Below are positions 1-10,906 of a stretch of 10,906 bases of DNA, one piece after another. The notes under the pieces are model-generated. The model was not told the origin of the DNA and searched no databases. It saw nothing but the letters and a program-made list of their open reading frames with translations. The number at the start of each line of letters is the position of its first letter. The first letter of the stretch is position 1. Source of the DNA: a virus (taxonomy: Duplodnaviria > Heunggongvirae > Uroviricota > Caudoviricetes); IMG/VR virus record IMGVR_UViG_2681813263_000008. One strand, written 5' to 3'. The translations under genes were made by a program, and so were the position numbers.

Positions 1-1
1 G

Positions 2-109
2 GCGAATTACCGTCTTATATCACTGGCGCTGACATCTCCGGATGACGGGGGCAGCTGTTATCTCTGGCTCAACCGTGGGCAACCACCCGCAGTTAACCGG
101 CGACGATAA
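2..109 (+). CDS. FII: 3' fragment of head-tail joining protein (lambda FII-like); start lies upstream of window
   Basis: Frame-2 reading from position 2 is open to TAA at 107-109 and ends ...SPDDGGSCYLWLNRGQPPAVNRRR, matching the lambda gpFII C-terminus as I recall it. It sits immediately upstream of Z, as in lambda. Confidence 0.55.
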   Translation, partial: ANYRLISLALTSPDDGGSCYLWLNRGQPPAVNRRR

Positions 110-123
110 ACGCAGGGTGAATT

Positions 124-699
124 ATGGCGATAAAAGGGCTTGATCAGGCGATTGACAATCTGAGCCGGGTTCGTAAAAACGCCATTCCGGCTGCTTCTGC
201 AATGACCATTAACCGCGTGGCCACAACGGCGATTAATCAGTCTTCGTCACAGGTTGCCCGGGAAACCAGGGTGAGACGGAAACTGGTAAAGGAACGGTCC
301 AGACTGAAACGGGCGACGGTCAGAAATCCGAATGCCAGAATTATCGTTAACCGCGGTGATCTCCCTGTGATTAAGCTGGGGATCAGAATGCTGGGGCGTC
401 GTCCGAACAGCATACTCAAAGCCGGTCAGCATCGTTATCAGCGGGCATTTATCCAGCGATTAAATAATGGGCGCTGGCATGTTATGCAACGTCTTCCCCA
501 GGCCAGATATGAGGAGGGCAATGACGACAAGGGAAGGAAAAAGCGTAATCGCCTTCCCATTCAGGTGGTGAAAATCCCGATGGCGGCCCCACTGAAACAG
601 GCATTTGATGAGAATGTTGACCGTATCCGGCGTGAACGCCTGCCTAAAGAACTGGCATACGCGCTGAAACAACAACTGAGGATTGCGATAAAACGATGA
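124..699 (+). CDS. Z: tail completion protein (lambda gpZ-like)
   Basis: 191-aa ORF beginning MAIKGLDQAIDNLSR... and ending ...[22 protein letters not shown], very similar to lambda gpZ (192 aa) in sequence and length. Its stop overlaps the U start as ATGA at 696-699. Confidence 0.9.
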   Translation: MAIKGLDQAIDNLSRVRKNAIPAASAMTINRVATTAINQSSSQVARETRVRRKLVKERSRLKRATVRNPNARIIVNRGDLPVIKLGIRMLGRRPNSILKAGQHRYQRAFIQRLNNGRWHVMQRLPQARYEEGNDDKGRKKRNRLPIQVVKIPMAAPLKQAFDENVDRIRRERLPKELAYALKQQLRIAIKR

Positions 700-1091
700 A
701 ACACACTGACATTCGTGCCGCAGTGCTGGATGCACTCGAGCAGCATGAACACGGGGCGACGCTGTTTGATGGTCGCCCCGTTGTTTTTGACGAAGAGGAT
801 TTTCCTGCGATCGCGGTTTATCTGACGGATGCAGAGTATACCGGTGAAGAGCTGGATGCAGATACCTGGCGGGCCACACTGCATATTGAGGTGTTTTTAC
901 CGGCACAGGTACCTGATTCGGAGCTCGATCAGTGGATGGAAAGCCGGATTTATCCGGCGATGACTGCGATCCCTGCACTGGCAGGACTGATTACCACGAT
1001 GGTTACGCAGGGCTATGAGTATCGTCGTGATGACGATATGGCGTTATGGAGCTCTGCGGATCTGACTTATTCCATTACATACGAGATGTGA
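696..1091 (+). CDS. U: tail terminator protein (lambda gpU-like)
   Basis: 131-aa [31 protein letters not shown]...[13 protein letters not shown], near-identical in length and sequence to lambda gpU (131 aa). The start is coupled to the Z stop; GAGGA lies upstream of the following V. Confidence 0.92.
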
Positions 1092-1098
1092 GGACGAT

Positions 1099-1851
1099 AT
1101 GGCAACACCAAATCCCCTGGAGCCGGTAAAAGGTGCCGGTACCACTCTGTGGGTTTACAACGGCAAGGCTGATGCTTATGCAAACCCGTTGTCAGACGAT
1201 GACTGGCAGCGACTGGCTAAGGTGAAGGATCTGACGCCGGGCGAGATGACGGCTGAATCCTATGATGATAACTACCTGGATGATGAAGACGCGGACTGGA
1301 GCGCGACCGGGCAGGGGCAGAAATCTGCAGGTGATACCAGTTTTACGCTGGCCTGGAAACCGGGAGAGGAAGGCCAGAAAGGGCTTATAGGCTGGTTTGA
1401 AAGCGGCGATGTCCGGGCCTATAAAATCCGTTTTCCGAATGGCACGGTGGATGTGTTTCGTGGCTGGGTCAGCAGTATCGGTAAGGCCGTGACGGCGAAA
1501 GAAGTGATCACCCGCACGGTGAAAGTCACTAACGTGGGTAAACCTTCTGTAGCGGAAGAACGCAGCAAAATTACGCCGGTCAGTGCGATTAAGGTGACGC
1601 CGACATCCGGTACGGTGGCAAAAGGGAAAACAACCACCCTGACGGTTTCTTTTGAGCCGGAAAGTGCAACCGACAAGACGTTCAGAGCGGTTTCCGCCGA
1701 TCCGTCGAAAGCCACCATTAGTGTGAAAGATATGACAATTACGGTAAACGGCGTGGCGACAGGTAAGGTGCAGATCCCTGTGGTGAGCGGAAATGGTCAG
1801 TTCGCCGCAGTGGCTGAAGTCACCGTTACTGAAGCGGGCGCTGCAGGGTAA
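1099..1851 (+). CDS. V: major tail tube protein with C-terminal Ig-like (Big_2-type) domain (lambda gpV-like)
   Basis: 250-aa ORF containing [33 protein letters not shown] and [39 protein letters not shown], all hallmark gpV stretches. The C-terminal ~90 aa (TLTVSFEPE...[12 protein letters not shown]) resembles the gpV Ig-like domain. A GAGG RBS precedes the ATG. Confidence 0.93.
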
Positions 1852-1864
1852 ACGGAGGTAATAC

Positions 1865-2296
1865 ATGTTTCTGAAAACAGAACAATTTGAATATAACGGT
1901 GTGTCTGTCACGCTTTCCGAATTGTCTGCGCTGCAGCGTATCGAGCATCTTGCCCTCCTGAAACGGCGTGCAGAACAGGCAGAATCCAGCGGCAACCTGC
2001 AGGTAAGCGTGGAAGATCTCGTCAGAACCGGCGCGTTTCTGGTGGCGATGTCCCTGTGGCATAACCATCCACAGAAAACGCAGTCACCGTCAATGAATGA
2101 GGCCGTGATGAAGATAGAGCAGGAAGTGCTCACCACCTGGCCTGCCGATGCCATTGCCCGGGCGGAAGACGTGGTGTTGTGCCTGTCCGGGATGATCGAA
2201 GCTGTTCGTCCGGATACTGATATTACTGAAGTGGCGAAAAATAACACGCTGACTGATGATGATTTTTCTGCGGGAAAGTCTTCGACGGCGAGCTGA
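1865..2296 (+). CDS. G: tail assembly chaperone (lambda gpG-like)
   Basis: 143-aa ORF MFLKTEQFEYNGVSVTLSELSALQRIEHLALLKRRAEQAES...AMSLWHNHPQKTQSPSMNEAV..., matching lambda gpG. GGAGG RBS sits 8 nt upstream. The slippery heptamer lies near its 3' end. Confidence 0.9.
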   Translation: MFLKTEQFEYNGVSVTLSELSALQRIEHLALLKRRAEQAESSGNLQVSVEDLVRTGAFLVAMSLWHNHPQKTQSPSMNEAVMKIEQEVLTTWPADAIARAEDVVLCLSGMIEAVRPDTDITEVAKNNTLTDDDFSAGKSSTAS

Positions 2297-2736
2297 ACTT
2301 TGCCCTCAGACTGGCGCGTGAGATGGGGAGACCCGACTGGCGCGCCATGCTTGCCGGGATGACATCCACCGAATATGCCGACTGGCACCGTTTTTACCGC
2401 ACGCATTATTTTCAGGATACCCAGCTGGATATGCATTTTTCCGGGCTGACGTACGCTGTACTCAGCCTGTTTTTTTGCGATCCGGATATGCATCCCTCTG
2501 ATTTCAGTCTGCTTGTCCCCCGGCATGAGGAAGAGCAGGTGGAGAGGCCGGATGAGGACAAAATGCTGATGCAGAAAGCGGCAGGACTTGCCGGAGGCGT
2601 CCGGTTCGGTGGGGACGGAGGGCGCGATATTTTATCGTCTGCGGATGTGGCGGATGTCATGGTGGATGATGCCGCATTAATGATGGCTTCAGCGGGGATT
2701 CCGGGAGGTGTGAGATATGTCCCAGCCGGTTGGTGA
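1865..2736 (+). CDS. T: tail assembly chaperone G-T fusion made by programmed -1 ribosomal frameshift at 2272-2278 (lambda gpGT-like)
   Basis: G is read in frame 2 to the heptamer G GGA AAG (2272-2278). The -1 frame (frame 1) is closed by three consecutive TGA codons (2254-2262) and opens only at 2263, then runs to TGA at 2734-2736, encoding ...VFDGELNFALRLAREMGRPDWRAMLAGMTSTEYADWHRFYRT.... Same architecture as lambda G/GT; predicted fusion ~290 aa. Confidence 0.8.
2272..2278 (+). other. slippery heptamer G GGA AAG (programmed -1 frameshift signal for G-T)
   Basis: Exact X XXY YYZ heptanucleotide in the G reading frame, the same heptamer as the lambda G/T site. It sits just where the -1 frame becomes open. 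Confidence 0.8.
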
Positions 2737-5378
2737 TCTTGTTATTGACCTGAGTCTGGATGCTGTCCGTTTCGATGAGCAGATGAGCCGGGTAAGGCGT
2801 CATTTTTCAGGTCTGGATACCGACGCCAGAAAAACCGCCAGTGCTGTTGAACAGGGCCTGAGCCGCCAGGCGCTGGCTGCACAAAAAGCCGGGATTTCCG
2901 TCGGGCAGTATAAAGCGGCCATGCGAACCCTGCCCGCACAGTTTACGGATATCGCCACGCAGCTTGCCGGTGGTCAGAATCCCTGGCTGATCCTGCTGCA
3001 ACAGGGCGGTCAGGTGAAGGACTCCTTCGGCGGGATGATCCCCATGTTCAGGGGGCTTGCCGATGCGATCACCCTGCCGATGGTCGGGGTCACCTCGCTG
3101 GCGGTGGCGACAGGTGCACTGGTGTACGCCTGGTACCAGGGAGATTCCACGCTTTCAGCGTTTAATAAAACCCTGGTTCTTTCCGGTAATCAGTCCGGAC
3201 TGACTGCCGATCGTATGCTGACTCTCTCAAGAGCCGGGCAGGCAGCAGGGCTGACGTTTAACCAGGCGAGAGAGTCACTGGCAGCCCTGGTGAATGCCGG
3301 TGTGCGTGGTGGTGAACAGTTTGATGCCATCAACCAGAGTGTCGCGCGTTTTGCGTCTGCATCCGGTGTGGAGGTGGATAAAGTCGCTGAAGCCTTCGGG
3401 AAGCTGACCACTGACCCGACGTCGGGACTGATGGCGATGGCGCGCCAGTTCCGTAACGTGACGGCAGAGCAGATTGCGTATGTTGCACAGCTGCAGCGTT
3501 CCGGAGACGAGGCCGGGGCATTGCAGGCGGCGAACGATATCGCCACGAAAGGCTTTGATGAGCAGACCCGTCGCCTGAAAGAAAACATGGGAACACTGGA
3601 GACCTGGGCGGATAAAACAGGGAAGGCATTCAAATCGATGTGGGATGCCATTCTGGATATCGGTCGTCCGGAATCCTCAGCGGATATGCTCGCCAGTGCG
3701 CAGAAGGCATTTGATGAGGCGGATAAAAAATGGCAGTGGTACCAGAGTCGGAGCCAGCGCCGCGGTAAAACCTCCTCTTTCCGGGCCAACCTTCAGGGCG
3801 CATGGGATGACCGGGAAAATGCCCGTCTGGGTCTGGCAGCGGCAACGCTGCAGTCGGATATGGAAAAAGCCGGTGAACTGGCGGCAAGGGACAGGGCTGA
3901 GCGTGAGTCGTCACAGCTGAAGTATACCGGAGAGGCGCAGAAGGCGTATGAGCGCCTGCTGACGCCACTGGAGAAATATACCGCCCGNNNNNNNNNNNNN
4001 NNNNNNNNNNNNNNNNNNNNNNNNNNNNNNNNNNNNNNNNNNNNNNNNNNNNNNNNNNNNNNNNNNNNNNNNNNNNNNNNNNNNNNNNNNNNNNNNNNNN
4101 NNNNNNNNNNNNNNNNNNNNNNNNNNNNNNNNNNNNNNNNNNNNNNNNNNNNNNNNNNNNNNNNNNNNNNNNNNNNNNNNNNNNNNNNNNNNNNNNNNNN
4201 NNNNNNNNNNNNNNNNNNNNNNNNNNNNNNNNNNNNNNNNNNNNNNNNNNNNNNNNNNNNNNNNNNNNNNNNNNNNNNNNNNNNNTGCGAATGAAAAAAT
4301 CAGCCAGCAGCGCCGTGATTTATGGAAAGCGGAAAATCAGTATGTGGTCCTGAAAGAGGCCGCCACGAAACGGCAGTTATCTGAGCAGGAAAAATCCCTG
4401 CTGGCCCATGAGAAAGAAACGCTGGAGTACAAACGCCAGCTGGCTGAGCTGGGCGACAAGATTGAACACCAGAAACGGCTGAATGAGCTGGCACAGCAGG
4501 CGGCGCGGTTTGAACAGCAGCAGAGCGCGAAGCAGGCGGCAATCAGCGCAAAAGCCCGCGGACTCACCGACCGTCAGGCGCAGCGGGAGTCGGAAGAGCA
4601 GCGCCTTCGTGAGGTGTACGGTGATAATCCGGCTGCGCTGGCGAAGGCCACATCTGCACTGAAGAACACCTGGTCTGCGGAGGAGCAGCTTCGTGGAAGC
4701 TGGATGGCCGGGATGAAGTCCGGCTGGGGCGAGTGGGCGGAAAGTGCGACGGACAGTTTTTCGCAGGTTAAAAACGCGGCCACGCAGACCTTTGACGGTA
4801 TTGCACAGAATATGGCAGCGATGCTGATCGGCAGCGAACAGAACTGGCGTGGTTTCACCCGTTCTGTGCTGTCCATGCTGACAGAGATTTTTCTGAAGCA
4901 GGCGATGGTGGGGATAGTCGGGAGTATCGGCAGCGCCATTGGCGGTGCTTTCGGTGGTGGTGCGTCTGCCTCCACGGGGACGGCCATTCAGGCTGCGGCG
5001 GCGAACTTCCATTTCGCGACCGGGGGATTTACGGGGACGGGGGGTAAATATGAACCTGCGGGGATTGTTCATCGCGGGGAGTTTGTCTTCACGAAGGAGG
5101 CGACCAGCCGGATTGGTGTCGGCAATCTGTACCGCCTGATGCGGGGCTATGCGGAAGGTGGTTATGTCGGCGGTGCCGGAAGTCCGGCGCAGATGCGGCG
5201 GGCGGAAGGCATTAATTTTAATCAGAACAATCACGTGGTGATTCAGAACGACGGCCCCAACGGGCGGGCAGGGCCGCAGCTGATGAAAGCGGTGTATGAG
5301 ATGGCCCGCAAGGGGGCACAGGATGAACTCCGGCTGCAGTTGCGTGATGGCGGTATGTTATCAGGGAGCGGTGGATGA
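2717..5378 (+). CDS. H: tail tape measure protein (lambda gpH-like); interrupted by a 298-nt N-run with a +1 frame offset across it
   Basis: N-terminal part (2717-3987, frame 2) MSQPVGDLVIDLSLDAVRFDEQMSRVRRHFSG...QKAYERLLTPLEKYTA and C-terminal part (4287-5378, frame 0) ANEKISQQRRDLWKAENQYVVLKEAATKRQLS...AIQAAAANFHFATGGFTGTGGKYEPAGIVHRGEFVFTKEATSRIGVGNLYRLMRGYA... both match lambda gpH. GGGAGGTG RBS precedes the start; the start overlaps the T stop by 20 nt. The frame is not continuous across 3988-4285. Confidence 0.85.
3988..4285. other. run of 298 N (unresolved or masked sequence) inside H
   Basis: Directly visible as n characters; flanked on both sides by gpH-like coding sequence in different frames. 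Confidence 0.99.
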
Positions 5379-5722
5379 AAACCTTTCGCTGGAAAGTGAA
5401 GCCGGATATGGAGGTGAACTCGCAGCCATCGGNNNNNNNNNNNNNNNNNNNGCGTGAAGTGCGTTTTGGTGACGGGTACTCACAGCGTATGGCGGCAGGG
5501 CTGAATGCTGACCTGAAAACATACAGGGTGACGCTTTCCGTGACCCGGGAGGAGGCCCGGCATCTGGAAGCGTTCCTGGCAGAGCACGGTGGCTGGAAGG
5601 CATTTTTGTGGAAGCCACCCTATGCATACCGGCAGATAAAGGTGACCTGTGCCGGGTGGTCTGCGCGGGTCGGGATGTTGCGCGTTGAGTTCAGCGCGGA
5701 GTTTAAGCAGGTGGTGAACTGA
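5375..5722 (+). CDS. M: tail tip protein (lambda gpM-like); contains a 19-nt N-run
   Basis: ORF MKTFRWKVKPDMEVNSQPS[N-run]REVRFGDGYSQRMAAGLNADLKTYRVTLSV...IKVTCAGWSARVGMLRVEFSAEFKQVVN matches lambda gpM (109 aa). Frame is continuous across the N-run. ATG overlaps the H stop (ATGA at 5375-5378). Confidence 0.88.
   Translation: MKTFRWKVKPDMEVNSQPSXXXXXXXREVRFGDGYSQRMAAGLNADLKTYRVTLSVTREEARHLEAFLAEHGGWKAFLWKPPYAYRQIKVTCAGWSARVGMLRVEFSAEFKQVVN
5433..5451. other. run of 19 N inside M
   Basis: Directly visible; the M reading frame is continuous across it. Confidence 0.99.
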
Positions 5723-6429
5723 TGCAGGATATTCGCGAAGAAAGTCTGAACGAGTCGGTTAAGTCAGAGCAGTCACCGCGGGTGGTACTCTGGGAAATCG
5801 ACCTGACGGTACAGGGTGGTGAGCGGTATTTTTTCTGTAATGAGCTGAATGAAAAAGGGGAGCCGGTCACCTGGCAGGGGCGTAAGTATGAGGCATACCC
5901 GATTGACGGCAGCGGCTTTGAGATGAACGGCCGGGGCAGCAGTGCCAGACCGTCGCTGACGGTGTCCAATCTGTTCGGTCTGGTCACCGGGATGGCGGAA
6001 GACCTGCAGAGTCTGGTGGGGGCCACGGTGGTCCGCCGCCGGGTGTATGCCCGTTTTCTGGATGCGGTGAATTTCGTTGCGGGCAATCCGGAGGCGNNNN
6101 NNNNNNNNNNNNNNNNNNNNNNNNNNNNNNNNNNNNNNNNNNNNNNNNNNNNNNNNNNNNNNNNNNNNNNNNNNNNNNNNNNNNNNNNNNNNNNNNNNNN
6201 NNNNNNNNNNNNNNNNNNNNNNNNNNNNNNNNNNNNNNNNNNNNNNNNNNNNNNNNNNNNNNNNNNNNNNNNNNNNNNNNNNNNNNNNNNNNNNNNNNNN
6301 NNNNNNNNNNNNNNNNNNNNNNNNNNNNNNNNNNNNNNNNNNNNNNNNNNNNNNNNNNNNNNNNNNNNNNNNNNNNNNNNNNNNNNNNNNNNNNNNNNNN
6401 NATGTCGGCAATTTTGGCGGTTTCCTTTC
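5722..6429 (+). CDS. L: tail tip protein (lambda gpL-like); 3' end and stop hidden in N-runs
   Basis: N-terminal part (5722-6096, frame 1) MQDIREESLNE...VVLWEIDLT..GGERYFFCNE.NEKGEPVTWQGR.Y..YPI.GSGFE.NG...RPSLTVSNLFGLVTGMAEDLQSLVGATVVRRRVYARFLDAVNFV matches lambda gpL. An isolated island 6402-6429 encodes (N)VGNFGGFLS, the gpL C-terminal motif, but in frame 2. Start overlaps the M stop (TGATG). Confidence 0.8.
6097..6401. other. run of 305 N inside L
   Basis: Directly visible; separates the gpL N-terminal part from the 28-nt gpL C-terminal island. Confidence 0.99.
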
Positions 6430-6701
6430 NNNNNNNNNNNNNNNNNNNNNNNNNNNNNNNNNNNNNNNNNNNNNNNNNNNNNNNNNNNNNNNNNNNNNNN
6501 NNNNNNNNNNNNNNNNNNNNNNNNNNNNNNNNNNNNNNNNNNNNNNNNNNNNNNNNNNNNNNNNNNNNNNNNNNNNNNNNNNNNNNNNNNNNNNNNNNNN
6601 NNNNNNNNNNNNNNNNNNNNNNNNNNNNNNNNNNNNNNNNNNNNNNNNNNNNNNNNNNNNNNNNNNNNNNNNNNNNNNNNNNNNNNNNNNNNNNNNNNNN
6701 N
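6430..6701. other. run of 272 N covering L 3' end, L-K junction and K 5' end
   Basis: Directly visible. Confidence 0.99.
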
Positions 6702-7244
6702 CCTGGCTGAGCGAGGCTGACCGGCGGNNNNNNNNNNNNNNNNNNNNNNNNNNNNNNNNNNNNNNNNNNNNNNNNNNNNNNNNNNNNNNNNNNNNNNNNN
6801 NNNNNNNNNNNNNNNNNNNNNNNNNNNNNNNNNNNNNNNNNNNNNNNNNNNNNNNNNNNNNNNNNNNNNCTGTTCCGGGATGCTTATCATCTGGCGGGGA
6901 CTGAAATGCCGGATTTTCATCGCGAGGATGACTGGTGGCGCAACGGTCAGAACCTTTACCTGGACAATATGGCGGTCACCGGCTTTTACCGGGTGCCCCT
7001 GTCCTCTGCACAGGCGGGCGATATTCTGCTGTGCTGCTTTGGTGCTTCGGTACCGAACCATGCCGCCATTTACTGCGGCAACGGTGAGCTGCTTCACCAT
7101 CTGCCTGAACAACTGAGTAAACGGGAGAGGTATTCCGAAAAATGGCAACGACGAACGCATTCAGTCTGGCGTCACCGCCACTGGCACGCATCTGCCTTCA
7201 CGGGGATTTACAACGATTTGGCCGCCGCCTCAGCCTGTATGTGA
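6702..7244 (+). CDS. K: tail tip assembly protein (lambda gpK-like); 5' end hidden in N-runs, visible in two pieces
   Basis: Island 6702-6727 encodes WLSEADRR (frame 2). The segment 6870-7244 (frame 0) encodes LFRDAYHLAGTEMPDFHREDDWWRNGQNLYLDNMAVTGFYRVPL...GDILLCCFGASVPNHAAIYCGNGELLHHLPEQLSKRERYSEKWQRRTHSVWRHRHW..., consistent with the gpK C-terminal region. Stop TGA at 7242-7244 lies 103 nt inside I, the same K/I overlap length as in lambda. Confidence 0.75.
6728..6869. other. run of 142 N inside K
   Basis: Directly visible; the K-like islands on either side are in different frames. Confidence 0.99.
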
Positions 7245-7646
7245 ACACGGCAGCGGAAGCCATTCGCGCCCTGTCGATGCAGATGCCGGGCTTTCGCCGT
7301 CAGATGAACGAAGGCTGGTACCAGATACGTATTGCCGGTTATGACACGGCACCGGAGGCGGTGTACGCCCGTCTTCACGAACAGCTGGGTGAGGGAACGG
7401 TCATCCACATTGTGCCGCGACTGGCCGGGGCCGGAAAGGGTGGACTGCAGATTGTGCTGGGGGCGGCAGCCATCGTGGGCTCTTTCTTCACTGCCGGGGC
7501 ATCAATGGCGTTATGGGGTTCAGCCCTGGCAGCCGGTGGTTTTTCTGCCACCACGATGCTGTTTTCACTTGGAGCCAGCATGATTCTGGGCGGTGTGGCC
7601 CAGATGCTGGCCCCGAAGGCAAAAACACCGGATTACCGCGCAACGG
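7142..7646 (+). CDS. I: tail tip assembly protein (lambda gpI-like); 3' end hidden in the 615-nt N-run
   Basis: ORF MATTNAFSLASPPLARICLHGDLQRFGRRLSLYVNTAAEAIRAL...WYQIRIAGYD...VIHIVPRLAGAGKGGLQIVLGAAAIVGSFFTAGA...FSLGASMILGGVAQMLAPKAKTP, clearly gpI-like. GAGAGG RBS precedes the start. It begins inside the K 3' end in a different frame. Confidence 0.85.
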
Positions 7647-8261
7647 NNNNNNNNNNNNNNNNNNNNNNNNNNNNNNNNNNNNNNNNNNNNNNNNNNNNNN
7701 NNNNNNNNNNNNNNNNNNNNNNNNNNNNNNNNNNNNNNNNNNNNNNNNNNNNNNNNNNNNNNNNNNNNNNNNNNNNNNNNNNNNNNNNNNNNNNNNNNNN
7801 NNNNNNNNNNNNNNNNNNNNNNNNNNNNNNNNNNNNNNNNNNNNNNNNNNNNNNNNNNNNNNNNNNNNNNNNNNNNNNNNNNNNNNNNNNNNNNNNNNNN
7901 NNNNNNNNNNNNNNNNNNNNNNNNNNNNNNNNNNNNNNNNNNNNNNNNNNNNNNNNNNNNNNNNNNNNNNNNNNNNNNNNNNNNNNNNNNNNNNNNNNNN
8001 NNNNNNNNNNNNNNNNNNNNNNNNNNNNNNNNNNNNNNNNNNNNNNNNNNNNNNNNNNNNNNNNNNNNNNNNNNNNNNNNNNNNNNNNNNNNNNNNNNNN
8101 NNNNNNNNNNNNNNNNNNNNNNNNNNNNNNNNNNNNNNNNNNNNNNNNNNNNNNNNNNNNNNNNNNNNNNNNNNNNNNNNNNNNNNNNNNNNNNNNNNNN
8201 NNNNNNNNNNNNNNNNNNNNNNNNNNNNNNNNNNNNNNNNNNNNNNNNNNNNNNNNNNNNN
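7647..8261. other. run of 615 N covering I 3' end and the I-J junction
   Basis: Directly visible; only 16 nt of readable sequence (with the J RBS) separate it from the J start codon. Confidence 0.99.
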
Positions 8262-8277
8262 TTCAGGGGAAGGCTGT

Positions 8278-10906
8278 ATGGGAAAAGGTGGCGGTAAGGC
8301 ACACACGCCTCGTGAGGCGAAGGATAATCTCAAATCCACGCAGATGATGAGCGTGATTGATGCGATTGGTGAGGGACCGATAGAAGGTCCGGTGAAGGGA
8401 CTGCAGAGTATCCTGGTGAACAAAACCCCGCTGACGGACACGGACGGTAATCCCGTGATACACGGTGTGACGGCGGTCTGACGCGCCGGGGAGCAGGAGC
8501 AGACACCACCGGAAGGCTTTGAGTCCTCCGGTGCTGAAACCGGACTGGGCGTGGAAGTGACGAAGGCAAAACCGGTGACGCGCACCATTACGTCCGCGAA
8601 CATTGACCGCCTGCGGGTTACCTTCGGGGTGCAGTCACTGGTGCAGACCACGTCAAAGGGTGACCGAAACCCGACATCCGTCCGCCTGCTGATTCAGTTA
8701 CAGCGTAACGGTAACTGGGTGACAGAAAAGGATGTCACCATTAACGGCAAGACCACCTCGCAGTTTCTGGCGTCGGTGATTCTGGATAATCTGCCTCCCC
8801 GTCCTTTTAACATCCGGATGGTCCGGGAGACAGCGGACAGCACCACGGACCAGCTGCAGAATAAGACGCTGTGGTCGTCATACACCGAAATCATCGATGT
8901 GAAACAGTGCTACCCGAACACGGCCATTGTGGGGCTGCAGGTGGATGCGGAGCAGTTCGGCGGCCAGCAGATGACGGTGAACTACCATATCCGCGGTCGC
9001 ATCATCCAGGTGCCGTCAAACTATGACCCGGAAAAACGCACGTACAGTGGTATCTGGGACGGCAGCCTGAAACCGGCATACAGCAACAATCCGGCCTGGT
9101 GTCTGTGGGACATGCTGACTCACCCGCGCTACGGCATGGGAAAACGTCTGGGGGCGGCGGATGTGGACAAGTGGGCGCTGTATGCCATCGGGCAGTACTG
9201 CGACCAGACGGTCCCGGATGGTTTCGGGGAGACCGAGCCGCGGATGACCTTCAATGCGTACCTGGCACAACAGCGTAAGGCATGGGACGTGCTCAGTGAT
9301 TTCTGCTCGGCGATGCGCTGTATGCCGGTATGGAACGGCCAGACGCTGACGTTTGTTCAGGACCGCCCGTCGGATGTGGTGTGGCCGTACACCAACAGCG
9401 ATGTGGTGGTGGATGATAACGGCGTGGGTTTCCGCTACAGCTTCAGTGCCCTGAAGGACCGGCACACGGCGGTGGAGGTGAATTATACCGACCCGCAGAA
9501 CGGCTGGCAGACCTCCACGGAACTGGTGGAAGACCCGGAAGCCATACTGCGCTACGGACGCAACCTGCTGAAGATGGACGCGTTCGGCTGTACCAGCCGC
9601 GGTCAGGCCCACCGTGCCGGACTGTGGGTGATAAAGACCGAACTGCTGGAAACGCAGACGGTGGATTTCACGCTCGGGTCTCAGGGGCTGCGGCACACAC
9701 CCGGTGACATCATTGAAATCTGTGATAACGACTATGCCGGGACCCTGACCGGCGGACGTGTCCTGTCCATTGATGCTGCCACCCGCACTCTGACGCTGGA
9801 CCGTGAAGTGACACTTCCGGAGACCGGTGCCGCCACGGTGAACCTGATTAACGGCAGCGGTAAGCCGGTGAGTGTGGACATCACCGAACACCCCGCGCCG
9901 GACCGGATACAGGTCAGTACCCTGCCTGATGGTGTGGAGACATACGGGGTGTGGGGACTCTCCCTGCCGTCACTGCGCCGTCGCCTGTTCCGCTGTGTCT
10001 CCGTCCGGGAAAACACGGACGGCACCTTTGCCATCACGGCGGTGCAGCACGTACTGGAAAAAGAAGCCATCGTGGATAACGGTGCCCGCTTTGAGCCGCA
10101 GTCAGGTTCCCTGAACAGCGTCATCCCACCGGCAGTGCAGCACCTGACGGCCAGTATCTGGCGCAGGCGAAATGGGACACGCCGCGGGTGGTGAAGGGTG
10201 TGCGCTTCAGTCTGCGCCTGACCAGTGGTAAGGGAACGGATGCCAGACTGGTGACCACCGCCATCACCGCAGACACGGAGCACCGTTTCAGCGGCCTGCC
10301 GCTCGGGGAATACACCCTGACGGTGCGGGCGATAAACAGCTATGGCCAGCAGGGTGAACCTGCCACCACCACCTTCCGGATTGCCGCACCGGCAGCACCG
10401 TCGCGGATTGAGCTGACGTCGGGCTATTTTCAGATAACCGCAACGCCGCATCTTGCCGTTTATGACCCGACGGTACAGTTTGAGTTCTGGTTCTCGGAAA
10501 AGCGGATTGCGGATATCAGGCAGGTTGAAACCACAGCACGCTATCTTGGCACGGCGCTGTACTGGATAGCCGCCAGTATCAATATCAAACCGGGCCATGA
10601 TTATTATTTTTACGTTCGCAGTGTGAACACCGTTGGCAAATCGGCATTCGTGGAGGCTGTCGGTCGGGCGAGCGATGATGCGGAAGGTTACCTGGATTTT
10701 TTCAAAGGAGAGATAGGGAAAACACATCTGGCTCAGGAGCTGTGGACGCAGATTGATAACGGTCAGCTTGCGCCTGACCTGGCTGAAATCAGGACGTCCA
10801 TTACGGATGTCAGCAATGAAATCACGCAGACCGTCAATAAGAAACTGGAAGACCAGAGTGCGGCAATTCAGCAGATACAGAAGGTTCAGGTTGATACAAA
10901 TAATAA
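8278..10906 (+). pseudogene. J: host specificity / central tail fibre protein (lambda gpJ-like), 3'-truncated by window end; as written it is interrupted by an in-frame TGA (8479-8481) and a frameshift near 10152
   Basis: Three collinear J-like segments. (1) 8278-8478, frame 1: MGKGGGKAHTPREAKDNLKSTQMMSVIDAIGEGPIEGPVKGL...IHGVTAV, then TGA. (2) 8482-10191, same frame: RAGEQEQTPPEGFESSG...TRTITSANIDRLRVTFGVQ...KQCYPNTAIVGLQVD...PAWCLWDMLTHPRYGMGKRLGAADVDKWALY...CTSRGQAHRAGLW...PPAVQHLTA. (3) 10152-10906, frame 0, open to window end: [24 protein letters not shown]...[35 protein letters not shown]...[44 protein letters not shown].... AGGGGAAGG RBS precedes the ATG. The type could equally be CDS if the two lesions are sequencing errors. 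Confidence 0.8.

What the first reader, a model, noticed from the sequence alone, without database searches (positions are those of the whole stretch)
7647..8277. I-to-J interval about 400 nt longer than in lambda, content hidden by the 615-nt N-run
The distance from the I start (7142) to the J start (8278) is 1136 nt, against 732 nt in lambda by my recollection of the lambda map (I 14773-15444, J 15505-18903). If the N-run length is real, roughly 400 nt of extra sequence lies between the I body and J: enough for a longer I, a small inserted ORF or a remnant of an insertion. If the N-run is only a gap estimate, there is nothing here. This is the only place in the window where an unseen extra gene could hide.
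Basis: inference. Interest (0 to 1): 0.4.

Follow-up and report, generated by a model that had tools for sequence, protein, structure and literature searches.

The report
Oversized assembly gap hiding known sRNA spacer
The 615 Ns between tail genes I and J are an assembly gap drawn about 112 bases too long; near-identical prophages show it hides the normal end of gene I and a 343-base spacer carrying an already described small regulatory RNA gene (PasB family), so there is no unseen protein gene.

Summary
The coordinates and arithmetic are correct. The N-run is 7647-8261 (615 N), I starts at 7142, J at 8278, so I-to-J is 1136 nt against 732 nt in lambda.

The N-run length is not real. Five IMG/VR prophages share both of this window's J-inactivating lesions. 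Two of them, L090 and L086, span nearly the whole window and match its visible bases at about 99.9 % with no indel. Measured in those two, all six N-runs in the window are too long: 298/210, 19/1, 305/274, 272/255, 142/120 and 615/503 (N count / real length). Taken at face value, four of them would frameshift H, L and K, which are intact in the siblings.

The 503 hidden bases are identical in three of these siblings and in E. coli ATCC 25922. They comprise:
- the last 176 nt of I, giving a normal 226-aa protein;
- a 343-nt spacer (60 nt in lambda), of which 327 nt are hidden.

The true I-to-J distance is therefore about 1024 nt, or 292 nt more than lambda. The spacer holds a PasB-family sRNA gene on the opposite strand, with its own promoter and terminator. 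PasB was described in EPEC, and the EHEC sRNAs EcOnc22-24 are probably the same family. A conserved hairpin follows. No conserved protein-coding ORF was found there.

Verdict: an ordinary gap over known content; low interest.

The parts
7142..7646 (+). Visible 5' part of tail assembly gene I (168 codons plus 1 nt).
   Evidence: Translation. It is 100 % identical at nucleotide level to siblings L014 and L086. Lambda I aligns from residue 1 with the full 226-aa sibling protein. PGAP annotates a shorter form starting at a GTG equivalent to window 7241.
7647..8261 (.). Scaffold gap of 615 N, about 112 nt too long. The real content is predicted to be 503 nt: 176 nt completing I (codons 169-226 plus TAA) and 327 nt of the I-J spacer. 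The spacer part includes a PasB-family sRNA gene on the minus strand (hidden positions about 184-267), its promoter (about 287-314), and a GC-rich hairpin (about 389-415).
   Evidence: The flanks map 503 nt apart in L014, L017, L022, L086, L090, L001 and L004. The 503 nt are identical in L014, L017, L022 and ATCC 25922, with the sequence shown. Promoter and terminator were scanned.
8262..8277 (+). Visible last 16 nt of the I-J spacer, containing the J ribosome-binding region.
   Evidence: The identical 16-mer precedes J in ATCC 25922 and in L014. Among 83 relatives, right-flank alignments reach this 16-mer only in the 498-504-nt class and its 455-nt and 1759-nt derivatives. They do not reach it in the ~400-nt class or the sodC classes.
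8278..10906 (+). Tail tip gene J, inactivated by TGG>TGA at 8479-8481 and a 22-nt deletion near 10144. These lesions serve as lineage markers for recognising sibling prophages.
   Evidence: Five IMG/VR contigs carry the exact 43-mer across the TGA. Four of them were also checked for the deletion junction and carry it.
3988..4285 (.). N-run inside tape measure gene H: 298 N against 210 real nt.
   Evidence: L004, L086, L090. H is an intact 857-aa ORF in L090.
5433..5451 (.). N-run inside gene M: 19 N against 1 real nt.
   Evidence: M is 109 aa in L090.
6097..6401 (.). N-run inside gene L: 305 N against 274 real nt. The excess of 31 nt would shift the frame.
   Evidence: L is 232 aa in L090.
6430..6701 (.). 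N-run across the L/K junction: 272 N against 255 real nt.
6728..6869 (.). N-run inside gene K: 142 N against 120 real nt.

Best explanation
The 615-N stretch is a scaffolding gap whose size was over-estimated by about 112 nt.

Beneath it lies ordinary sequence of a defective lambdoid prophage. First come the last 58 codons and stop of tail assembly gene I, giving 226 aa in total. Then comes a 343-nt AT-rich spacer, of which only the last 16 nt are visible.

The spacer is a small cargo (moron-like) unit. Eight bases past the I stop codon lies the 3' end of an approximately 84-nt sRNA gene of the PasB family. It is transcribed towards I, that is, antisense to the tail operon. Its sigma-70 promoter is TTCACA-16-TATAAT, and it ends at a Rho-independent terminator (CCCGCAG...CTGCGGG plus U7).

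In EPEC, PasB is an Hfq-dependent base-pairing sRNA with its own promoter, reported there from bacterial cultures rather than phage infection. Downstream towards J lies a 12-bp GC-rich hairpin flanked by A- and T-runs. It most likely acts as a bidirectional terminator or insulator. After it come the J ribosome-binding site and the J start.

Shown:
- the gap-length error;
- the sibling sequence;
- the promoter and terminator motifs;
- the homology to PasB.

Inferred:
- that this genome carries the same 503 nt;
- that the sRNA is expressed here;
- the role of the hairpin;
- that the gaps arose because M-L-K-I-spacer DNA is repeated among co-resident prophages.
For: (1) Sibling prophages close the gap in silico. 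L014, L016, L017 and L022 carry both the TGA and the 22-nt deletion junction. A fifth contig, L089, carries the TGA 43-mer.
- L090 covers window 1-10906. Its visible segments match at 3986/3987, 1147/1147, 645/645, 28/28, 26/26, 776/777 and 2638/2645, all ungapped.
- Its flanks are 503 nt apart where the window has 615 N.

(2) All six N-runs are too long, by 88, 18, 31, 17, 22 and 112 nt. The same values are obtained against L086 and L090 for all six runs, against L014, L017 and L022 for the five runs they cover, and against the less similar L004 and L001.
- There are no indels in about 9,250 visible nt.
- H, M, L, K and I are intact in L090.

(3) The 503 nt are identical in L014, L017, L022 and ATCC 25922.

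(4) Among 83 relatives the hidden-equivalent length is 395-419 (27), 455 (1), 498-504 (46), 1008-1063 (9) or 1759 (1). None falls near 615. In a spread of 60 E. coli records, every flank pair at 98.5 % identity or better was 501-503 nt apart.

(5) The visible 16-nt spacer tail is specific to the 503-nt class.

(6) PasB is recorded in table S6 of PMC8550237 as NC_011601 1466343..1466261, minus strand, 83 nt, between the I and J genes of prophage PP6, with northern probe AATCCCGCAGTGATCGCGGAGCT.
- That locus aligns to the ATCC/L014 spacer.
- A promoter scoring 11/12 and a terminator were found on the minus strand.
Against: The bases themselves are not in the window, so the content is inferred from siblings.
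- No sibling is a perfect match: there are 1-16 mismatches in the J part.
- The excess of 112 nt is the largest of the six.
- The site is a known insertion hot-spot, with sodC and IS variants.
- The predicted sRNA is only about 73 % identical to E2348/69 PasB, because its 5' body differs. Its expression has not been shown for this variant.
- The published PasB 5' end lies 21 nt downstream of the -10 box, so the exact transcript ends are uncertain.
Confidence: 0.9

Rival explanations
1. The N-run length is exact, for example because it is a length-preserving mask. This genome would then really have about 112 extra nt in the I-J spacer, from a small insertion or an unsampled spacer variant of about 455 nt.
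For: The spacer length is variable among relatives, from 235 to 1599 nt. The 112-nt excess is larger than the 17-31 nt seen at four of the other runs.
Against: Accepting N lengths as exact also requires hidden insertions of 88, 18, 31, 17 and 22 nt inside H, M, L and K. Four of these would break the frame. Yet about 9,250 visible nt show no indel against siblings that have these genes intact. None of 83 relatives has a hidden length between 505 and 1007 nt. Every sibling covering both flanks (L014, L017, L022, L086, L090 at 503; L016 at 502) has 502-503 nt.
Confidence: 0.04
2. The gap marks a repeat-induced assembly break at a real large insertion in the spacer, such as an IS element as in L058 or a sodC moron. 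The true distance would then be larger than 615 nt.
For: L058 carries an IS3-family element inside the same 343-nt-type spacer, making it 1599 nt. Nine relatives carry sodC there. IS copies commonly break short-read assemblies (general knowledge).
Against: Five other gaps in the same 7 kb occur in plain conserved tail genes with no insertion in the siblings, so gaps here need no IS to explain them. No sibling carrying the same J lesions has an insertion. The sodC classes have a different spacer tail from the 16 nt visible in the window. A gap estimate of 615 is much closer to 503 than to about 1760.
Confidence: 0.03
3. The extra spacer DNA encodes a small protein. Candidates are the 113-aa GTG ORF spanning the spacer on the plus strand, the 94-aa ORF on the minus strand, or a 20-24-aa peptide upstream of J.
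For: The ORFs exist in ATCC 25922. One phage record annotates a hypothetical protein there (ASU11). A locus tag is skipped between I and J in ATCC 25922.
Against: Spacer variants of the same class are 338, 341, 342, 343 and 344 nt long, and these differences are not multiples of 3. The right half is absent from the ~400-nt class and the left half is the sRNA unit. PGAP leaves the region unannotated in essentially all of 1451 records. The long plus-strand ORF has a GTG start, runs antisense to the sRNA gene and overlaps the J start.
Confidence: 0.03

Closest known systems
PasB sRNA of EPEC E2348/69 prophage PP6 (Pearl Mizrahi et al. 2021, PMC8550237; distribution study bioRxiv 10.64898/2026.05.13.724894)
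   Same: Same locus: immediately after the I stop, on the strand opposite the tail genes, between I and J. The promoter block (about 92 % identical) and the terminator (CCCGCAG...CTGCGGG-U7) are conserved, as is the central core (UCCUUnACAyUrAUCUUC). The length is about 83-84 nt.
   Different: The variant predicted here (ATCC 25922/L014 type) is only about 73 % identical overall. It has a different 5' body and a longer terminator loop, so its targets may differ. It sits in a 343-nt spacer rather than a 240-nt one. In the window itself it is hidden by Ns.
EcOnc22/23/24, Hfq-bound sRNAs of EHEC Sakai prophages Sp15/Sp14/Sp11 (Tree et al. 2014, PMC4104026, Table S2)
   Same: All three peaks fall in I-J spacers on the strand antisense to the tail genes. 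The northern size is about 85 nt, and the RNA is destabilised without hfq. After the coordinate offset of +128 to +146 nt shown by the AgvB control, the EcOnc22 peak lies on the PasB homologue.
   Different: The equivalence rests on a coordinate-offset argument, not on a published sequence. The Sakai copies are in ~240-nt spacers with another body variant (L065-like).
Phage lambda I-J junction
   Same: Same gene order K-I-J. The I protein is homologous from residue 1 (68 % identity) and of nearly the same length, 226 against 223 aa.
   Different: Lambda has a 60-nt spacer with no cargo. Here the spacer is 343 nt and carries an antisense sRNA unit and a hairpin.
sodC (Cu/Zn superoxide dismutase) moron between I and J of lambdoid prophages
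   Same: Same insertion site and the same orientation opposite to the tail genes. The PasB body and terminator are retained next to I.
   Different: It needs 1008-1063 nt between the flanks and has a different J-proximal spacer end. This is incompatible with the window's visible 16 nt and with its siblings.
Scaffold gaps of estimated size in draft assemblies
   Same: N-runs of irregular lengths (19-615). There are tiny sequence islands of 26-28 nt between them. The flanks are colinear with intact relatives, and the lengths do not match the real sequence.
   Different: The assembler and method are unknown. The bias is always positive (+17 to +112 nt), which I cannot explain.

Membership tests
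Assembly/scaffold gap with estimated (unreliable) size | The stretch consists only of N and is flanked by sequence colinear with intact relatives. | tested here: met
   The flanks align ungapped to L090 and L086 on both sides.
Assembly/scaffold gap with estimated (unreliable) size | The N count differs from the true length in near-identical genomes, and the same holds at other gaps in the record. | tested here: met
   615 against 503. The other five runs are 298/210, 19/1, 305/274, 272/255 and 142/120. Frames of H, L and K would break if the N lengths were real.
Lambda gpI-type tail assembly protein | Homology to lambda I over the full length, with a size of about 223 aa. | tested here: met
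   168 aa are visible in the window. The sibling protein is 226 aa and 68 % identical to lambda I from residue 1. I is 225-226 aa in 82 of 83 relatives. The C-terminal 58 aa are not visible in the window.
PasB / EcOnc22-24 sRNA family (hidden content) | The gene lies in the I-J spacer directly after the I stop, on the opposite strand. | tested here: met
   Met in the siblings and ATCC 25922. It cannot be seen in the window itself because of the Ns.
PasB / EcOnc22-24 sRNA family (hidden content) | Own sigma-70 promoter and Rho-independent terminator. | tested here: met
   on the minus strand of L001: TTCACA-16-TATAAT (11/12) at 8091->8064, and a terminator at 7985->7969 followed by a T7 run. 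The terminator hairpin is also in the fold.
PasB / EcOnc22-24 sRNA family (hidden content) | Sequence similarity to the published PasB RNA. | tested here: inconclusive
   Identity is about 73 % overall. The terminator (25 nt, 100 %) and the core motif are shared, but the 5' body differs. Canonical PasB at 98.8-100 % occurs in other spacers of the same length class (L041, L015). There is no Rfam model for PasB, and scans found nothing.
PasB / EcOnc22-24 sRNA family (hidden content) | Expressed, Hfq-dependent, base-pairing RNA. | not testable with these tools
   Shown by others for E2348/69 PasB (northern, RIL-seq; PMC8550237) and for EcOnc22 (PMC4104026). Not shown for this variant or this genome.
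sodC moron at the I-J site | A sodC ORF between I and J, with about 1008-1063 nt between the flanks. | tested here: not met
   The gap and sibling length are 503-615 nt. The visible spacer tail is not of the sodC class.

The most novel reading that the evidence does not exclude
The J-proximal half of the hidden 343-nt spacer might be a second functional element that nobody has described. It corresponds to L001 8105-8280 and is absent from the ~240-nt PasB spacers. Possibilities are a further small RNA on the minus strand ending at the strong hairpin, or a terminator/insulator that shields J and the PasB promoter in the lysogen. This half is at least 99 % identical in 1440 of 1451 E. coli records, whereas the flanking I and J sequences vary from 90 to 99 %. 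It folds far better than shuffled controls (z = -6.2 and -4.5).
Probability: 0.15. Interest if true: 0.3.

Novelty: already known. Interest (0 to 1): 0.07.

Why it matters
It matters mainly as quality control. None of the six N-run lengths in this record should be used to infer gene lengths, frameshifts or hidden genes. This "only place an unseen gene could hide" holds nothing new.

The biological content is a reminder that the I-J junction of E. coli lambdoid prophages is a cargo site. It carries the PasB/EcOnc22 sRNA unit, sometimes with sodC or an IS element. Standard annotation leaves it blank.

Tried and rejected
- **Rfam scans:** the E-value scan of the relative's spacer and the gathering scans of the window, L001 and the Sakai loci found no family for the spacer. 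The only hits were IS009 far downstream in L001, and AgvB and STnc100 in the control locus. PasB has no Rfam model.
- **Source search:** an exact 43-mer across the J nonsense codon gave no hit in genome contigs. I did not use the metagenome scan, because finding the source record would not unmask the Ns.
- **Complete E. coli sibling:** none exists in the collection. The best J match is 97.3 % and lacks the deletion. The closest flanks are in ATCC 25922.
- **Protein-coding reading of the spacer:** the ORFs were rejected on indel pattern and lack of conservation. No family search was run on them.
- **AsxR/AgvB-type anti-sRNAs and PasA/C/D:** these lie in the Q-lysis moron site, not here.
- **Failed look-ups:** the L003 file never appeared for scripts, so L004 was used instead. 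A look-up of the 503-class spacer in Sakai through a supposed derivative landed in SpLE2 and was abandoned.

Full report
**Observation.** The window has six N-runs. The one in the finding is exactly 7647-8261 (615 N). It is followed by 16 visible bases (TTCAGGGGAAGGCTGT) and the J start codon at 8278.
- The ATG at 7142 opens a frame whose 168 visible codons are I-like.
- Lambda I aligns from its first residue, at 68 % identity, with the identical but complete I of a sibling prophage. PGAP annotates a shorter GTG form in relatives.
- Nominally the interval here is 1136 nt, 404 nt more than in lambda.

**Are the N lengths real? No.**
- A search with the I protein in IMG/VR returned 80 loci.
- Four of them (L014, L016, L017, L022) contain both lesions that inactivate J in this window: TGG>TGA at 8479-8481 and the junction of a 22-nt deletion near 10144.
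- An exact search for the 43-mer across the TGA found five such contigs in total.
- L090 spans the whole window. Its visible segments match at 3986/3987, 1147/1147, 645/645, 28/28, 26/26, 776/777 and 2638/2645 bases. There is not one indel in about 9,250 nt.
- Yet every N-run is longer than the sibling sequence it replaces:

| N-run in window | N count | Real length in siblings | Excess |
|---|---|---|---|
| 3988-4285 | 298 | 210 | 88 |
| 5433-5451 | 19 | 1 | 18 |
| 6097-6401 | 305 | 274 | 31 |
| 6430-6701 | 272 | 255 | 17 |
| 6728-6869 | 142 | 120 | 22 |
| 7647-8261 | 615 | 503 | 112 |

- The excess totals 288 nt.
- The same numbers are obtained against two less similar complete genomes: ATCC 25922 (L001) and strain ST648 (L004).
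- Four of the excesses are not multiples of three and fall inside H, L and K. These genes are intact and of canonical length in L090: H 857 aa, M 109, L 232, I 226.
- Six insertions confined exactly to the unreadable stretches, with none elsewhere, is not a credible biological pattern. The N counts are inflated gap estimates.

**What is hidden.**
- The 503 nt between the flanks are identical in L014, L017, L022 and ATCC 25922. L016 has 502 nt. The sequence is shown.
- The first 176 nt complete I (codons 169-226 plus TAA), giving a 226-aa protein.
- I is 225-226 aa in 82 of 83 relatives.
- The remaining 327 nt, plus the 16 visible bases, form a 343-nt spacer.
- The true I-to-J distance is therefore about 1024 nt. 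That is 292 nt more than lambda: 9 nt from I and 283 nt from the spacer.

**What the spacer is.**
- It is AT-rich and unannotated in RefSeq.
- A scan of ATCC 25922 finds, on the strand opposite the tail genes, a near-consensus promoter and an intrinsic terminator:
  - the promoter is TTCACA-16-TATAAT (11/12) at L001 8091->8064;
  - the terminator is at L001 7985->7969, followed by T7, and ends 8 nt past the I stop.
- This is the locus of PasB, an 83-nt Hfq-dependent sRNA validated by northern blot in EPEC E2348/69. Table S6 of PMC8550237 places it at NC_011601 1466343..1466261 (minus strand), between the I and J genes of prophage PP6. Its probe is AATCCCGCAGTGATCGCGGAGCT.
- I fetched that locus. 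I ends at L002 856, PasB occupies 862-944 and J starts at 1097. It aligns with the ATCC/L014 spacer through the terminator, a central core and the promoter block.
- A 2026 preprint describes PasB as embedded in an operon of phage structural genes and widespread, with 1,158 hits.
- The variant predicted for this window has the same promoter and terminator but a diverged 5' body, at about 73 % identity overall. Canonical PasB occurs in other spacers of the same length class (L041, L015).
- The published 5' end lies 21 nt after the -10 box, so the exact transcript start is unsettled.

**Link to EHEC.**
- Table S2 of Tree et al. 2014 lists EcOnc22, 23 and 24. They run at about 85 nt and are destabilised without hfq.
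- Their peaks fall in the I-J spacers of Sakai prophages Sp15, Sp14 and Sp11, on the antisense strand.
- As a control, the Rfam AgvB hit shows that the paper's coordinates are about 128-146 nt lower than those of NC_002695.2. That offset places the EcOnc22 peak on the PasB homologue.
- These are therefore probably the same sRNA family.

**The rest of the spacer.**
- The left ~165 nt (the PasB unit) is shared by nearly all spacer classes; the 848-852-nt sodC class keeps only the RNA body and terminator. The J-proximal part is class-specific.
- In the 343-nt class it contains a 12-bp GC-rich hairpin flanked by A- and T-runs. It folds much better than shuffles on both strands, with z = -6.2 and -4.5.
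- This half is at least 99 % identical in 1440 of 1451 E. coli records.
- I read the hairpin as a bidirectional terminator or insulator. That is inference.
- ORFs across the spacer are not supported. Same-class spacers differ by 1-5 nt in length, and other classes lack the region.

**Diversity at the site.**
- Across 83 relatives the hidden-equivalent length is 395-419 (27), 455 (1), 498-504 (46), 1008-1063 (9) and 1759 (1). The 1008-1063 group carries sodC on the opposite strand. The 1759 case carries an IS3-family element.
- None is near 615.
- Only the 503-nt class and its two derivatives share the window's visible 16-nt tail.
- In 60 E. coli records sampled down the ranking, all flank pairs at 98.5 % identity or better were 501-503 nt apart.

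**Rivals.**
- An exact N length, meaning 112 extra nt, would also require hidden frame-breaking insertions in four other genes. I give it 0.04.
- A large insertion behind the gap (IS or sodC) is possible at this hot-spot, but nothing supports it. It is absent from every sibling covering both flanks, the sodC class has a different spacer tail, and the five other gaps arise without any insertion. I give it 0.03.
- A small protein gene in the spacer gets 0.03.

**Verdict.**
The caution that the N-run might only be a gap estimate was largely justified.
- The interval is nevertheless truly longer than in lambda, for a known reason.
- Nothing new is hidden here.
- The novelty class is "already known" and interest is low.

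Noticed in passing
window 8278-10906: J is a pseudogene: TGG>TGA at 8479-8481 and a 22-nt frameshifting deletion near 10144. Five IMG/VR contigs carry the TGA 43-mer, and the four checked for the deletion carry that as well. No complete RefSeq E. coli genome has these lesions (best match 97.3 %). This is a distinct defective-prophage lineage whose host is not identified.
   Followed up: partly
window 3988-4285, 5433-5451, 6097-6401, 6430-6701, 6728-6869: All five other N-runs are also longer than the real sequence in siblings, by 88, 18, 31, 17 and 22 nt. One run of 19 N replaces a single base. Sequence islands of 26 and 28 nt sit between runs. The bias is always positive, and I cannot explain why.
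   Followed up: yes
L027 / L032 spacers (IMG/VR), also H117, H118, H121, H122: In sodC-carrying I-J spacers the sodC gene lies on the same strand as PasB and upstream of it. In the 851-nt type it replaces the PasB promoter, so the PasB body and terminator would form the 3' end of the sodC transcript. This may be a 3'-UTR-derived form of the sRNA.
   Followed up: no
L058 (IMGVR_UViG_2541047932_000014), spacer of 1599 nt: An IS3-family insertion sequence (115-aa and 248-aa transposase ORFs) is inserted at about position 195 of a 343-nt-type spacer, between the PasB promoter and the hairpin.
   Followed up: partly
L091, L092, L093 (E. coli O157:H7 Sakai Sp15, Sp14, Sp11 I-J spacers): EcOnc22/23/24 of Tree et al. 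2014 map to I-J spacers. After a coordinate offset of about 128-146 nt they coincide with PasB homologues. The EPEC paper lists no EHEC homologue for PasB, so the two names may never have been linked.
   Followed up: partly
L001 8105-8280 (equivalent to the hidden J-proximal part of the gap): This 176-nt non-coding segment is at least 99 % identical in 1440 of 1451 E. coli records and unannotated. It contains a very stable hairpin with A- and T-runs on either side, and it is more conserved than the flanking I and J coding sequence.
   Followed up: partly
L090 12035-13836: Downstream of the broken J, the sibling contig holds a second J-like stretch, 76-92 % identical to window 9133-10906. This suggests a tandem or recombined tail-gene remnant.
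   Followed up: no
L001 7954-8296 (ATCC 25922): Locus tag DR76_RS19590 is skipped between I (RS19595) and J (RS19585), so a feature once annotated in the spacer seems to have been withdrawn.
   Followed up: no
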